64,000 bases of DNA from Escherichia coli. Its GTDB lineage: Bacteria > Pseudomonadota > Gammaproteobacteria > Enterobacterales > Enterobacteriaceae. The position numbers are program-made. Shown piece after piece: positions 18,001 through 21,000 of the stretch. Location of the stretch: NCBI RefSeq assembly GCF_001677475.2, contig NZ_CP015229.1, one strand, 5' to 3'. How positions within the stretch are numbered: the stretch's first letter is position 1; each line of letters begins with the position of its first letter.

Positions 18001-21000
18001 TGTATCTGTCGCGGTGACAGTAAAGCCAGGAATGAAATAGCCAGATGCCGCACCCAGGGCAGTAAATAAAAAAACAAAACCCCGGCTGGGGGAACAGTCC
18101 GGGGTTTTTAGTTTTCACGCCTTGAAAGGAGCAAGGGAGAACCTGTGGTCGATTTTAGCAAATTGATTCGGGAGTTGCGACTAATGATTAAGCAATTACC
18201 AAACTGGAAATTCATCATGCTCTGGCTGGTGATGTTTATCGCCTCTGTTGGCTACCTGATTGGGCAGATTCGCTGGTGGTGATATGAACCGCATTCTGTA
18301 TATGGTCATTATTGCCCTGCTGTTGGTTTGTGGTGCGCTGTGTCTGGCAACAAACCATTACCGCGATAACGCCATCACTTACAAAGCGCAGCGCGATAAA
18401 AAAGTCAGTGAGCTGAAGCTGGCGAACGCCACCATTACTGATATGCAGCAGCGCCAGCACGATGTTGCTGCGCTCGATGCAAAATACTCGAGGGAATTAG
18501 CCGATGCGAGAGCTGAAAATGAAACTCTGCGTGCTGATGTTACCGCTGGTCGTAAGCGCCTGCGGATCAACGCCACCTGTCCAGGCTCCGTGCGTGAAGC
18601 CACCGCCACCGCCCGCGTGGGCAATGATGCCAGCGTCGAACTCTCTCCAGTTGCTGGACGAAACGTTCTCGGTATCAGAGACGGAATCATCAGCGACCAG
18701 GCAGCATTGAGAACGCTTCAGGAATATATCCGTACTCAGTGCCTGAAATAGTTTTTTCAATGCGTTGTATCGTCGCCGTATTTCCGCATTAACAGAGACC
18801 GCAGCCCTACGGGGAGACTCCTCTGCGCGAGTGTGCGGGGATAATCAAAAACGATACACACCGGGGTTTACTGCGTTAACGGAGCGCGGCGTTGTCCCCT
18901 CATAGTCGCCTGGCCGGTGCGATGGTGGAAGAAACCGGAACACATTACAAAATGATAACAATTATCATTTTTCGGGTCCTCCTGGCGGGGTGGGCCTGTA
19001 CACGGGGCGGGTCGGCGCGGAAAAAAGCGCATTTTTGTGATTTTATCGTCATCATCATCATGTATGTAAACTGTTGTTTTTAATGTAATTGATACAAAAA
19101 AGATGATGATTGTGGCCAATTTTTGTTCGACATCTTTGTGTGGCGGCATTTCTTTACAAAAAAACAGAATCACTTCTGTTCAGAGGGGTATGTGGAGGAG
19201 GCGTAGATGGACGGCGAGCTGAAAAATATGAAGTTAAATATTAATCAACTGGCAGCCCTTTCAGGCCTGCACCGGCAGACCGTTACCGCAAGAATGGCGG
19301 ATGTTCCTCTTGCTCCGGGCAGTAATGAGAAGAAAAAACTTTATCTCCTGACGGACCTGATTACTGCGCTGCTGGCAAAAACACCATCTACCGAAGATGA
19401 GGAGATGAATCCACACGATCGCAAGGCATGGTATCAGTCCGAGCGCGAGCGTCTTAAATTTCAGCATGAAACTGTTCAGCTTGTCCCTGTCAGTGATGTC
19501 AGGCGGTCGTTTTCCGTCGTGGTGAAAGCCATTGTGCAGATACTGGAAACCTGGCCTGACAGGCTGGAGAGGGACAGGGGGTGGACTGCATCACAACTGA
19601 ACGAAGTGCAGATCGTTGTTGATGAGATCCGTGACACGCTGGAAAAGGCAGTGATTGCCTGCTGTGATGAGGCTGATATGTGAATCCGGTTAACGAGTGC
19701 CATAGCCGCGCATCCGATATCTGGCGCGAAGTGGCCTCGCTGTTTCGCCCGCCTGGCCGGTTACCAGTAGCGGAAGCCATCAGGCGTTATATGCGGGTAC
19801 CACGGGGAGCCAACACTTCAGGTCCGTGGGAGTCATCGCTGACGCCCTATATGATTGACCCCATTAATACATTATCAGCCCGTGAATATGACGCGGTGGT
19901 GTTTGTCGGACCGGCGCGAACCGGGAAAACCGAAGGGCTGATTGATGGCTGGATTGTGTACGGCATCATCTGTGATCCGGCGGATATGCTGGTGGTGCAG
20001 ATGACTGAGACGAAGGCGCGTGAGCATTCCAGAACGCGTCTTTCCAGGACGTTTCGCCACAGTCCGGAGGTCAGTAAGCGCCTCAGTCCTTCCCGTAATG
20101 ACAACAACGTCCACGACAAAATGTTTCTTGACGGCTCATTCCTGAAAATTGGCTGGCCGTCGATCACCGTATTTTCCTCCTCGGATTACCGTCGTGTGGC
20201 GCTGACGGATTATGACCGTTTTCCTGAGAACGTCGACGGTGAAGGGGATGCCTTCACGCTGGCATCAAAGCGTACCACCACCTTTATGTCCTCGGGGATG
20301 ACCCTGGTCGAAAGTTCGCCCGGGCGGGATATCACCGATACCAAATGGCGTTGTGGTGGCGCACATGAGGCACCGCCAACAACGGGGATCCTGTCACTGT
20401 ATAACCGGGGAGACCGCCGTCGGTGGTACTGGCCGTGTCCGCACTGTGGGGAATATTTTCAGCCGGTGATGGATAACATGACCGGTTACCGGAATAACCC
20501 TGATTTTGTGGCTGCCGGGCAGGCGGCCCGCCTGATGTGTCCGCACTGCCGCGGCCTGATTGCTCCGGAACAGAAGCGTGAACTGAATAACCAGGGGATC
20601 TGGCTGCGGGAAGGCGAACGGGCAGCGGCGGATGGCAGTATTACCGGAACCCCTCGAAATTCCAGAATAGCAAGTTTCTGGATGGAGGGGCCGGCAGCGG
20701 CGTTTCAGACCTGGGAACAACTGATTTTTAAGCTGCTGGCGGCAGAAGAAGAGTATGAGCGAACCGGCAGTGAAGAGACCCTGAAAGCGGTGGTAAACAC
20801 CGATATCGGACGACCCTATCTGCCCCGTTCAGCCACGGAACAGCGTAAAAGTGAACTGCTTGAACAGCGTGCCGAGCCGTTTCCCCGGCGATCTGTGCCG
20901 GATGGTGTGCGTTTTATTGAGGCAACGGTTGACGTACAGGGCGGTAAAAATCGCCGTTTTGTTGTGCAGATCACCGGATACGGAGAACAGGGGGAACGCT

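What the first reader, a model, noticed from the sequence alone, without database searches (positions are those of the whole stretch)
18145..18286. Unannotated 45 aa membrane peptide translationally coupled to Rz
A short ORF below the ORF-track cutoff has a good RBS before a GTG start, a C-terminal hydrophobic helix ([20 protein letters not shown]), and a stop that overlaps the Rz ATG (TGATATG). It could be a small holin/antiholin-like or spanin-modulating peptide that standard annotation would miss.
Basis: seen in the sequence. Interest (0 to 1): 0.35.

Follow-up and report, generated by a model that had tools for sequence, protein, structure and literature searches.

The report
Conserved phage membrane-peptide cassette before Rz
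The 45-codon reading frame in front of the phage lysis gene Rz is a real, widely conserved but almost never annotated gene for a tiny inner-membrane protein, and it moves between phages as a ~205-bp cassette with its own RNA control elements, possibly including an antisense RNA.

Summary
The ORF (18145-18282, +, GTG, 45 aa) exists as described. One detail is wrong: its TGA stop is 1 nt before the Rz ATG and does not overlap it.

It is a true gene. It matches phrog_6632 (unknown function) over its full length. HMMER finds 63 clusters of relatives. dN/dS is 0.18, with saturated synonymous change in the membrane helix. The Stx-phage variant occurs in 899 of 5,426 complete E. coli genomes and is usually unannotated.

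It is not tied to Rz. In 73 of 86 sampled loci it lies 1 nt upstream of an Rz-type spanin, but it also lies between baseplate genes, in tail modules and next to terminase genes. In every context it brings the same upstream elements:
- a terminator-type hairpin 34-36 nt before the start;
- a second hairpin that covers part of the ribosome-binding site.

Synonymous change is absent at codons 3-6. The opposite strand there reads TGnTAnnnT (an extended -10 promoter motif) in 20 of 22 lineages. This predicts a ~75-nt antisense RNA covering the start region.

Best reading: a tightly gated, membrane-active late protein with type-I-toxin-like control. Its function is untested. A role in modulating holin or spanin remains possible but unproven.

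The parts
18070..18115 (.). Hairpin 1. A-run, GC-rich stem-loop (stem about 18080-18104) and T-run; an intrinsic-terminator-type hairpin readable on both strands. It is the 5' boundary of the conserved cassette.
   Evidence: terminator-like on the + strand; present in all 43 unique upstream regions, ending 34-36 nt before the start in most. Mean dG is -20.7 on the + strand and -18.3 on the - strand; for the window the values are -21.6 and -20.5; the outer stem covaries (AU 8, GC 8, CG 4); similarity between different genomic contexts begins here.
18120..18136 (.). Hairpin 2. CCTTG (18120-18124), 7-nt loop, CAAGG (18132-18136). The 3' arm overlaps the start of the Shine-Dalgarno sequence.
   Evidence: A 4-7 bp stem with a 6-7 nt loop occupies the same position in nearly all lineages but with different sequences: CCTTG/CAAGG, CGTTA/TAACG, TGACT/AGTCA, CCTTCTG/CAGAAGG, CCTAT/ATAGG. 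These are compensatory changes. In distant lineages the region folds better on the minus strand.
18133..18141 (+). Shine-Dalgarno region AAGGGAGAA for the GTG start. The GGGAG core is at 18135-18139, 5 nt from the start.
   Evidence: Conserved as CAAGGGAGAA, AAAGGAGAA or GAGGAGAA in the alignment of 43 unique cassettes.
18145..18282 (+). Small ORF, 45 aa, GTG start, TGA stop. N-terminal amphipathic helix (residues 4-17), Pro19 kink, transmembrane helix (about residues 23-42, nt 18211-18270), C-terminal RWW. Member of phrog_6632.
   Evidence: E 8.7e-22, full length; 63 clusters of relatives; dN/dS 0.18. AlphaFold2 model; hydropathy and charge.
18152..18160 (-). Predicted extended -10 promoter element. 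TGCTAAAAT on the minus strand is the reverse complement of codons 3-6 (GAT TTT AGC A).
   Evidence: TGnTAnnnT at the identical position in 20 of 22 lineages that share under 90% DNA identity, including lineages whose amino acids differ (YIK gives TGATATACT); no synonymous change at codons 3-6, while codons 23-45 are saturated. The -35 is weak, 3/6. The tool's sigma-70 scan found no promoter at 9/12. Inference; no transcript evidence.
18070..18146 (-). Predicted ~75-nt cis-antisense RNA. Its 5' end lies opposite the start codon. It has a stem-loop carrying the anti-SD sequence (CUCCC), an A-rich linker, the terminator hairpin and a U tail.
   Evidence: the same two-stem architecture is predicted in 20 lineages. 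MFE -26.8 kcal/mol, z -3.0. There is no Rfam family. Hypothetical.
18170..18186 (+). Possible internal start. GGGAG (18170-18174, codons R9-E10) lies 9 nt before the invariant ATG of Met14 (18184-18186). Use of it would give a 32-aa isoform.
   Evidence: Met14 is invariant, and a GGAG, GAGG or AGGA core lies 8-10 nt upstream in about 20 of 22 lineages (read from the codon table). Gene callers have sometimes called the 32-aa form (P0007, P0008, P0043). Inference.
18280..18286 (+). Junction TGA-T-ATG. The small-ORF stop is 1 nt before the Rz start. GGTGGT (codons W44-W45) serves as an SD-like sequence for Rz.
   Evidence: The same 1-nt junction (TGA or TAA, then N, then ATG) occurs in 73 of 86 loci.
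18284..18751 (+). Rz (i-spanin, 155 aa) with embedded Rz1 (o-spanin, 18519-18710). It is the downstream neighbour and not part of the mobile cassette.
   Evidence: PF03245 E 1e-38; PF06085 E 2e-21. (phrog_13, phrog_3198).
16680..17717 (+). Rest of the lysis cassette: holin PF16931 (16680-17072), holin PF05449 (17062-17337) and M15 peptidase endolysin (17340-17717).

Best explanation
The ORF encodes a real 45-aa bitopic inner-membrane protein of the phrog_6632 family. It has a cytoplasmic amphipathic helix, a Pro kink, one transmembrane helix, and RWW at the periplasmic face.

It belongs to a self-contained ~205-bp cassette running from 18070 to 18282. The cassette has spread horizontally into the late operons of many temperate phages. 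It is most often docked directly in front of Rz, where it has taken over the upstream position that is translationally coupled to Rz.

The cassette carries its own gating elements:
(i) an intrinsic-terminator hairpin just upstream, which only antiterminated late transcription should pass;
(ii) a second hairpin that partly occludes the SD;
(iii) a weak GTG or TTG start codon;
(iv) probably a constitutive extended -10 promoter on the opposite strand inside codons 3-6. This would make a ~75-nt cis-antisense RNA that covers the start region and ends at the same hairpin.

This is the control logic of a type I toxin-antitoxin pair, or of P22 sar/ant. My inference is that the peptide is membrane-active and harmful if made early. 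It is kept silent in the lysogen and made only when late transcription floods the locus. At that point it would act in the inner membrane during the lysis phase, for example by lowering the membrane potential and so sharpening holin or SAR-endolysin triggering.

Shown: the gene is real, the cassette is conserved and mobile, the hairpins are conserved, and a nucleotide-level constraint sits on the 5' codons.
Inferred: the antisense RNA, the toxicity, and the lysis-phase role.
For: Gene reality:
- phrog_6632 match over the full length, E 9e-22.
- 53 phage records by tblastn; 363 IMG/VR loci.
- 63 clusters at 50% identity in 1.8 billion proteins.
- dN/dS 0.18 across 11 lineages, with synonymous sites saturated in the TM region.
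- Hydrophobic positions 4, 7, 8, 11 and 13 are kept through varied codons.

Mobility:
- The same unit is found after SAR lysozymes, an M15 peptidase, a 138-aa endolysin, a baseplate V gene, a tail K-like gene and an Ant-like gene, and beside terminase and TA genes.
- Similarity starts at the A-run before hairpin 1 and ends at the stop codon.
- Tandem paralogous cassettes occur in L091 and L109.

Gating:
- Hairpin 1 is in 43 of 43 unique upstream regions at a fixed distance, with covariation.
- Hairpin 2 shows compensatory changes.
- The start is GTG or TTG in all 11 enterobacterial lineages.

Antisense promoter:
- TGnTAnnnT at one fixed position in 20 of 22 lineages.
- Synonymous divergence (pS) is 0 at codons 3-6, 0.32 at 7-13, 0.58 at 14-22 and 0.75 at 23-45.
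- Position 3 varies only among NAY codons (D, N, H, Y). The third base of codon 4 is always T. Ser5 is always AGC.
- The + strand has no conserved structure there that could explain this.

Distribution: rare on plasmids, 10 of 72,556, so it is phage-specific.

Precedent for extra small TM lysis factors: Lcc6 of LambdaSo (bioRxiv 10.1101/2024.01.23.576932).
Against: - There is no transcript, ribosome-profiling or phenotype data for any family member. The literature search found nothing.
- The predicted antisense promoter has only a chance-level -35, 3/6 against 2.5 expected. It fails the tool's 9/12 sigma-70 criterion.
- Hairpin 1 is on average more stable on the + strand. It may therefore be just a sense-strand terminator.
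- Two of 22 lineages (L095, L107) lack the motif.
- The lineages are phylogenetically related, so 20 of 22 is not 20 independent trials.
- AU-rich, unstructured start regions are generally selected for and could account for part of the synonymous constraint.
- The cassette has no sense-strand promoter of its own in this window, unlike classical type I toxins.
- Toxicity is assumed, not shown.
- Sampling of contexts is biased toward close relatives of the query (best 80 of 363 loci).
Confidence: 0.45

Rival explanations
1. Dedicated spanin or holin modulator. The peptide's TM helix binds the Rz TM domain, or the holins, in the inner membrane and tunes when the last step of lysis fires. Translational coupling fixes its stoichiometry with Rz.
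For: In 73 of 86 sampled loci it lies immediately upstream of Rz-type i-spanins of several sequence types, with an invariant 1-nt junction. Other unrelated small TM peptides occupy the same slot in other phages: phrog_4906 (ECs_5722, ECs_1966 and ECs_5741 in Sakai) and phrog_4493 in ETEC H10407. This suggests a functional niche. Small extra TM lysis factors do exist: Lcc6, and Mu gp25 releasin as cited there.
Against: The cassette also sits in tail and baseplate modules and beside terminase genes, far from any lysis gene. In strain A31 it precedes a 60-aa lipoprotein instead of Rz. There is no sequence similarity to Rz or to any holin, antiholin or releasin family. The most conserved part is the cytoplasmic helix, not the TM helix that would contact Rz. 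This reading does not explain the conserved upstream hairpins.
Confidence: 0.2
2. Accessory 'moron'-type membrane protein for competition between phages. Examples would be superinfection exclusion by blocking DNA entry at the inner membrane, or abortive-infection or defence activity. On this reading it is unrelated to lysis and is merely parked in permissive intergenic sites of late operons.
For: It is a mobile cassette in variable hotspots next to toxins, TA systems and other small TM ORFs. The TM segment and paralogues diversify rapidly. Small inner-membrane exclusion proteins are known in phage tail modules, for example HK97 gp15 (own knowledge).
Against: There is no sense promoter, and a terminator lies directly upstream. 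Expression in the lysogen, which exclusion requires, is therefore unlikely. There is no PADLOC match.
Confidence: 0.12
3. Classical type I toxin-antitoxin addiction module that stabilises the prophage through post-segregational killing.
For: It encodes a small hydrophobic peptide, and an overlapping antisense RNA with its own terminator is predicted. Tandem copies occur. It neighbours type II TA genes in L091-L095.
Against: No promoter for a stable toxin mRNA was found in this window. The cassette is nearly absent from plasmids. Its stop is tightly joined to an essential lysis gene. No known type I family matches in Rfam, although a bona fide hok/sok locus is detected elsewhere in the window at 12781-12951.
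Confidence: 0.1
4. Passive leader. The ORF matters only because translating it delivers ribosomes to the Rz start, or the region is merely the Rz 5' UTR, and the peptide itself has no function.
For: The 1-nt stop-start junction, and the SD-like GGTGGT formed by the WW codons. Rz is commonly coupled to the preceding gene; rrrQ/rzpQ overlap in K-12 Qin.
Against: There is strong purifying selection on the amino-acid sequence, dN/dS 0.18. The family, including RWW, is conserved in contexts with no Rz. 63 diverse clusters keep the same helix-kink-TM plan.
Confidence: 0.05

Closest known systems
PHROG family phrog_6632 (phage proteins of unknown function). Annotated examples: WP_000459345.1 (E. coli APEC O1), CAH23245.1 (phage CP-1639), rac58 (phage Rac-SA53), SEN34_23.
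   Same: Full-length HMM match (residues 1-45 to profile positions 1-45, E 8.7e-22). Same length, start position, helix-kink-TM plan and RWW end.
   Different: Nothing differs; this is the family the ORF belongs to. The family has no assigned function. I found no description of its cassette structure, upstream hairpins or antisense motif.
Type I toxin-antitoxin systems (hok/sok, ibs/sib, tisB/istR, zorO/orzO)
   Same: The peptide is under 60 aa and hydrophobic with a single TM helix. Its translation start is structurally occluded. A short cis-encoded antisense RNA with a Rho-independent terminator is predicted to cover the start region. Tandem copies occur in some genomes.
   Different: The TM helix is C-terminal, with the charged part N-terminal. 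There is no toxin promoter of its own; the cassette is embedded in phage late operons behind a terminator. It is not found on plasmids. Neither the antisense RNA nor toxicity has been demonstrated. There is no sequence or Rfam relationship.
Phage P22 sar RNA / ant (own knowledge)
   Same: A short antisense RNA would start just inside a phage gene, run back across its ribosome-binding site, and keep a harmful gene silent.
   Different: ant encodes a soluble antirepressor in the immI region. There is no homology. Here the target is a membrane peptide in the late operon.
Lambda S holin dual-start motif with the sdi stem-loop (own knowledge)
   Same: A small lysis-cassette membrane protein with an RNA hairpin at the SD. 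Two in-frame starts are possible (GTG1 and ATG14), which could give two isoforms differing in a charged N-terminal extension.
   Different: S has three TM helices and a charged C-terminus, and its starts are 2 codons apart. Here there is one TM helix, no C-terminal tail, the starts are 13 codons apart, and there is no homology.
Lcc6 of Shewanella phage LambdaSo (bioRxiv 10.1101/2024.01.23.576932) and Mu gp25 releasin
   Same: Small single-TM phage proteins outside the holin/endolysin/spanin trio that act at the inner membrane during lysis. Lcc6 is also encoded away from the lysis cassette.
   Different: Lcc6 has an N-terminal TM helix and a 43-aa cytoplasmic tail, the opposite arrangement. gp25 carries DUF2730. 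No sequence similarity to either was detected here.
phrog_4906 peptides (ECs_5722, ECs_1966 and ECs_5741 of E. coli O157 Sakai prophages Sp9, Sp10 and Sp15)
   Same: About 48-aa single-TM peptides encoded directly upstream of Rz (7-nt gap) in lambdoid prophages. They are co-resident with a phrog_6632 member in phage phiSTEC1589-Stx1c.
   Different: The family is unrelated. It follows an antirepressor gene with no upstream hairpin cassette.

Membership tests
phrog_6632 | Significant full-length match to the family profile HMM | tested here: met
   E 8.7e-22, 77.8 bits, residues 1-45 against profile positions 1-45 of 45.
Holin | At least one TM domain in a small protein encoded with the endolysin | tested here: met
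   One TM helix at residues 23-42. The gene lies in the lysis cassette here.
Holin | Hydrophilic, highly charged C-terminal domain, and membership of a recognised holin family | tested here: not met
   The C-terminus after the TM helix is only RWW. There is no Pfam, NCBIfam or PHROG holin match, whereas the two upstream genes do match PF16931 and PF05449.
Holin | Forms lethal membrane lesions at a programmed time and releases or activates endolysin | not testable with these tools
   This needs expression and lysis assays.
i-spanin (Rz-like) | N-terminal TM anchor plus a periplasmic coiled-coil domain long enough to reach the o-spanin | tested here: not met
   The TM helix is C-terminal and about 3 residues are periplasmic. 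There is no similarity to Rz.
Type I toxin-antitoxin | Small (under 60 aa) hydrophobic or TM peptide | tested here: met
Type I toxin-antitoxin | Antisense RNA gene overlapping or adjacent to the toxin mRNA start region | tested here: inconclusive
   A conserved minus-strand TGnTAnnnT occurs in 20 of 22 lineages, with zero synonymous change there and a downstream terminator. However, the -35 is weak, the scan tool found no promoter, and there is no transcript evidence.
Type I toxin-antitoxin | Toxin mRNA made from its own promoter; peptide toxic when the antitoxin is lost | tested here: inconclusive
   No sigma-70-like promoter was found in 17700-18800, and there is only ~35 nt between the hairpin and the start. 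In L091, promoter-like sites lie ~350 nt upstream of each tandem copy. Toxicity is not testable here.
Moron (autonomous promoter-gene-terminator unit) | Own promoter upstream and own terminator downstream of the gene | tested here: not met
   The terminator lies upstream, not downstream. No promoter was found. The stop codon abuts the next gene.
Releasin (Mu gp25, DUF2730) | DUF2730 domain | tested here: not met
   No Pfam match other than a sub-threshold FixP_N hit.

The most novel reading that the evidence does not exclude
The 18070-18282 unit is the founding example of an undescribed class of phage-borne, type-I-toxin-like cassettes. Each is a ~205-bp mobile module encoding a small inner-membrane peptide on one strand. 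On the other strand it encodes a ~75-nt Hfq-type cis-antisense RNA (anti-SD stem-loop, A-rich linker and shared bidirectional terminator). Such cassettes insert into antiterminated late operons, sit in about 17% of complete E. coli genomes without annotation, and gate a membrane-active step at the end of the lytic cycle.
Probability: 0.3. Interest if true: 0.7.

Novelty: new variant of a known kind. Interest (0 to 1): 0.5.

Why it matters
If the reading is right, many well-studied lambdoid phages carry an overlooked fourth element in or near the lysis cassette. These include Stx1 and Stx2 converting phages, H-19B and Salmonella prophages. The element has its own RNA-level lock.

This would matter in three ways:
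(i) for models of lysis timing and toxin release in Shiga-toxin and enterotoxin phages;
(ii) for annotation, since a gene present in roughly one in six complete E. coli genomes is mostly uncalled;
(iii) as a compact natural example of a mobile gene cassette that brings its own terminator, translational occlusion and possibly its own antisense repressor.

Even if the antisense RNA proves absent, the conserved hairpin-hairpin-ORF cassette and the sharp synonymous-site constraint still need an explanation.

Tried and rejected
- **Pfam, NCBIfam, PADLOC and PDB sequence searches of the peptide or its profile:** no meaningful hit.
- **Rfam on the locus (E up to 10) and on the whole window:** only chance-level minus-strand hits driven by the terminator, such as rnk leader at E 0.08 and ohsC at E 9. 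No family reached threshold at the locus.
- **Is the predicted antisense RNA one of the Hfq-bound prophage sRNAs of E. coli O157 Sakai (Tree et al. 2014, PMC4104026, Table S2)?** EcOnc11 and EcOnc12 looked promising by distance. They map downstream of Rz instead, and Sakai Sp9, Sp10 and Sp15 carry a different peptide (phrog_4906) rather than this cassette. That dataset therefore cannot test the idea.
- **Pas sRNAs (bioRxiv 10.64898/2026.05.13.724894):** they sit next to the holin/lysozyme operon, not at this site.
- **A + strand hairpin that buries the GTG and codons 2-9 (dG -10) as the cause of the synonymous constraint:** it is specific to the window and A31 variant and is not conserved (mean z +0.19 over 21 lineages).
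- **A conserved -35 for the antisense promoter:** not found.
- **Sense-strand promoter in the cassette:** none.
- **Duplicate of the Rz N-terminus:** no similarity.
- **Second copy in the window:** none.
- **K-12 homologue with ribosome-profiling data:** the Qin prophage lacks the cassette.
- **Plasmid addiction role:** only 10 of 72,556 plasmids carry it.
- **Literature search for the peptide sequence or for small TM ORFs upstream of Rz:** nothing.
- **Broader IMG/VR scan with distant members:** it failed or returned little diversity.
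Full report
**Observation.**
- The window has an ORF at 18145-18282 on the + strand: GTG start, 45 codons, TGA stop. It encodes [45 protein letters not shown].
- GGGAG lies 5 nt upstream of the GTG, within AAGGGAGAA.
- Residues 23-42 are strongly hydrophobic. The N-terminal 22 residues carry net charge +3, and only RWW follows the helix.
- AlphaFold2 with a 14-sequence alignment gives helix 4-17, a break at L18-P19 and helix 20-44, mean pLDDT 82.6. The predicted topology is N-in/C-out with almost nothing in the periplasm.
- One detail in the finding is wrong. The stop (18280-18282) and the Rz ATG (18284-18286) are separated by one base. They do not overlap.

**Surroundings.**
- Holin PF16931 (16680-17072).
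- Holin PF05449 (17062-17337).
- M15 endolysin (17340-17717).
- A 93-aa ORF of phrog_33497 (17788-18069).
- A terminator-type hairpin (about 18080-18104).
- The small ORF.
- Rz (PF03245) with embedded Rz1 (PF06085).
- Upstream of the holins lie pertussis-toxin-like A and B subunit genes.

**Is it a gene?** An ORF of this size is not significant alone, since there are 66 ORFs of at least 20 aa in 4.5 kb. Conservation is what counts.
- It matches phrog_6632 (unknown function) over its full length, E 8.7e-22.
- tblastn finds it in 53 phage records. These include Stx1 and Stx2 converting phages, H-19B, CP-1639, TL-2011c, Salmonella SPN3UB, FSL SP-016 and SEN34, Rac-SA53 and Pseudomonas YMC11/02/R656.
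- 363 IMG/VR loci encode a relative.
- A profile search of 1.84 billion representatives finds 63 clusters that keep one plan: an amphipathic helix (xSKLIRElRxM), (P/S)xW(K/R)F, a TM helix, and often (R/K)WW.
- Across 11 enterobacterial lineages dN/dS is 0.18. Synonymous sites are saturated in the TM half (pS 0.75), and hydrophobic positions are kept through different codons.
- The start position and SD are conserved. The start is GTG in 10 of 11 lineages and TTG in one.
- The Stx-type variant occurs in 899 of 5,426 complete E. coli genomes, with up to 6 copies. PGAP calls it only sometimes, for example WP_000459345.1 in APEC O1. It is not called in the RM9088 genome, which is identical to the window here.

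**It is a mobile cassette, not an Rz appendage.**
- In 73 of 86 loci examined it sits 1 nt upstream of an Rz-type i-spanin, and several Rz sequence types are involved. The preceding endolysin is variously a SAR lysozyme, an M15 peptidase, a 138-aa enzyme or a GH19-like enzyme. The sample is biased toward close relatives.
- The same unit also lies in other places:
  - between baseplate V and the next baseplate gene in Rac-SA53, SEN34 and L048-L050;
  - after a tail K-like gene (L031);
  - after an Ant-like gene (L042);
  - inside a Pseudomonas phage tail module;
  - in a variable region with ParE, RelB and HicAB genes just before terminase.
- In E. coli A31 it precedes a 60-aa lipoprotein instead of Rz.
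- Aligning 43 unique versions shows that similarity between contexts begins at the A-run before an upstream hairpin and ends at the stop codon. That span is about 205 bp.
- Tandem paralogous cassettes occur in L091 and L109.

**Conserved RNA elements.**
- Every one of 43 unique upstream regions has a GC-rich hairpin flanked by an A-run and a T-run. It ends 34-36 nt before the start in most. Mean dG is -20.7 on the + strand and -18.3 on the - strand. The outer stem covaries.
- Between this hairpin and the start lies a second small hairpin, with a 4-7 bp stem and a 6-7 nt loop. Its 3' arm runs into the SD.
- The sequence of the second hairpin differs between lineages in a compensatory way: CCTTG/CAAGG, CGTTA/TAACG, TGACT/AGTCA, CCTTCTG/CAGAAGG and CCTAT/ATAGG.
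- In distant lineages this segment folds better as the minus strand. Hairpin 1 folds slightly better as the plus strand.

**A nucleotide-level constraint inside the ORF.**
- Synonymous divergence rises along the gene:

| Codons | pS |
|---|---|
| 3-6 | 0 |
| 7-13 | 0.32 |
| 14-22 | 0.58 |
| 23-45 | 0.75 |

- D3 is always GAT, S5 always AGC, K6 always AAA, E10 always GAG and R12 always CGA. In contrast, R43 uses five different codons.
- In more distant lineages residue 3 varies only among NAY codons (D, N, H, Y), and the third base of codon 4 is always T.
- On the opposite strand these invariant bases spell TGnTAnnnT, the key positions of an extended -10 promoter. In the window this is TGCTAAAAT at 18160-18152.
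- The motif lies at the identical position in 20 of 22 lineages that share under 90% DNA identity. This includes L110, where the peptide reads YIK and the motif is TGATATACT.
- Transcription from there would start opposite the start codon, cross the SD and hairpin 2, and stop at hairpin 1. The product would be a ~75-nt RNA with an anti-SD stem-loop, an A-rich linker and a terminator. For the window the MFE is -26.8 kcal/mol, z -3.0.
- Caveats:
  - the -35 is at chance level;
  - the scan tool reports no promoter;
  - the lineages are related;
  - no transcript data exist for this RNA.
- A + strand hairpin that buries the GTG in the window is not conserved elsewhere. It therefore does not explain the constraint.
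- Met14 is invariant and is preceded 8-10 nt upstream by GGAG or GAGG in most lineages. A 32-aa isoform from an internal start is possible.

**Attempts to find the RNA or the peptide in known resources.**
- Rfam has no family here.
- The Hfq-CRAC sRNA list for O157 Sakai (PMC4104026, Table S2) could not test the idea. Sakai prophages Sp9, Sp10 and Sp15 carry an unrelated 48-aa TM peptide (phrog_4906; ECs_5722, ECs_1966 and ECs_5741) in front of Rz instead of this cassette. EcOnc11 and EcOnc12 map downstream of Rz.
- K-12 Qin lacks the cassette.
- The cassette is almost absent from plasmids, 10 of 72,556.
- No paper containing the peptide sequence, or describing a small TM ORF upstream of Rz, was found.
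- The closest functional precedents are not homologous: Lcc6 of LambdaSo, a 65-aa TM protein required for lysis and encoded outside the lysis cassette, and Mu releasin.

**Interpretation.**
- Settled: this is a real, conserved, phage-specific small inner-membrane protein gene. It travels with its own upstream hairpins as a cassette. In this window it is docked onto Rz.
- Inferred: the cassette is built to keep the peptide silent except during late transcription. The locks are a terminator directly upstream, partial SD occlusion, a weak start codon and probably a cis-antisense RNA.
- That logic is typical of harmful small membrane peptides (type I toxins) and of P22 sar/ant. I therefore favour a membrane-active late or lysis-phase accessory factor, with confidence 0.45 for the package.
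- Rivals:
  - a direct Rz or holin modulator (0.2);
  - an exclusion or defence moron (0.12);
  - a classical addiction module (0.1);
  - a passive leader for Rz translation (0.05).
The gene and its adjacency to Rz are real. Specificity for Rz or holin is not shown, and the non-lysis contexts argue against exclusivity.

**Novelty and score.** The protein family already exists in PHROGs and in scattered 'hypothetical protein' annotations, so the gene itself is not new. What I could not find described is the following set of features:
- the mobile hairpin-hairpin-ORF cassette;
- its near-universal 1-nt docking to Rz;
- the sharp synonymous-site constraint;
- the conserved antisense extended -10 motif.

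I rate it a new variant of a known kind (small phage membrane peptides and type-I-like control), with interest 0.5.

Noticed in passing
window 15404-16622 (+): Two genes just upstream of the holins encode a pertussis-toxin-like AB toxin. The A subunit matches Pertussis_S1 (E 5e-15) and Enterotoxin_a. The B candidate gives a sub-threshold Pertussis_S2S3 hit (E 1.6e-4). They occupy the position that stx genes occupy in Stx phages.
   Followed up: partly
window 18752-18945, minus strand around 18832-18880: The region downstream of Rz is 92% identical to the post-Rz region of E. coli O157 Sakai prophage Sp9. That region contains the abundant Hfq-CRAC peak EcOnc12 (homologues EcOnc10 and EcOnc11) of Tree et al. 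2014. A homologue of that uncharacterised minus-strand sRNA candidate is therefore probably present here.
   Followed up: partly
window 12781-12951 (+): Rfam match above threshold to the sok antitoxin RNA (102 bits, E 4e-22). A bona fide hok/sok type I toxin-antitoxin locus therefore lies about 5 kb upstream in the same prophage.
   Followed up: no
window 45773-45893 (+): MicC sRNA gene (125 bits). It is a chromosomal marker suggesting that the prophage/chromosome boundary lies within the window.
   Followed up: no
window 17719-18069 (+), flanked by hairpins at 17732-17752 and 18080-18104: A 93-aa ORF (17788-18069, phrog_33497, unknown function) is inserted between the M15 endolysin and the cassette, with terminator-like hairpins on both sides. 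In ETEC H10407 and A31 the same hairpin follows the endolysin directly, so this ORF looks like a separate insertion.
   Followed up: partly
L009 (ETEC H10407) 2631-2928; L010 (E. coli A31) 2574-2895: These prophages have holin-holin-M15 endolysin, then a small TM peptide, then a 60-aa lipoprotein (phrog_7528, lipobox LLVGC). No recognisable Rz/Rz1 is present. In H10407 the peptide is a 37-aa phrog_4493 variant ending VRWW. This may be an unrecognised outer-membrane-disruption module.
   Followed up: partly
L112 1327-1473 (Sakai Sp9 ECs_5722); L113; L114; L008 2639-2770: An unrelated 43-48-aa single-TM peptide family (phrog_4906) sits directly upstream of Rz in O157 Sakai prophages Sp9, Sp10 and Sp15. 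It co-occurs with a phrog_6632 member in phage phiSTEC1589-Stx1c. 'A small TM peptide just before Rz' therefore seems to be a recurring slot filled by different families.
   Followed up: partly
L091 2626-3879; L109 2501-2860; L007 2674-2790: Tandem cassettes encode paralogous small TM peptides with different N-termini but the same hairpins and the AIRWW ending. In L091 each copy has a promoter-like site (TTTACA-17-TATCAT) about 350 nt upstream.
   Followed up: partly
window 18142-18175 (+): In this window and in A31 only, the GTG start and codons 2-9 can form a 13-bp hairpin (dG about -10 kcal/mol), because codon 7 is TTG rather than CTG. This might further depress use of the GTG start in this particular phage.
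   Followed up: yes
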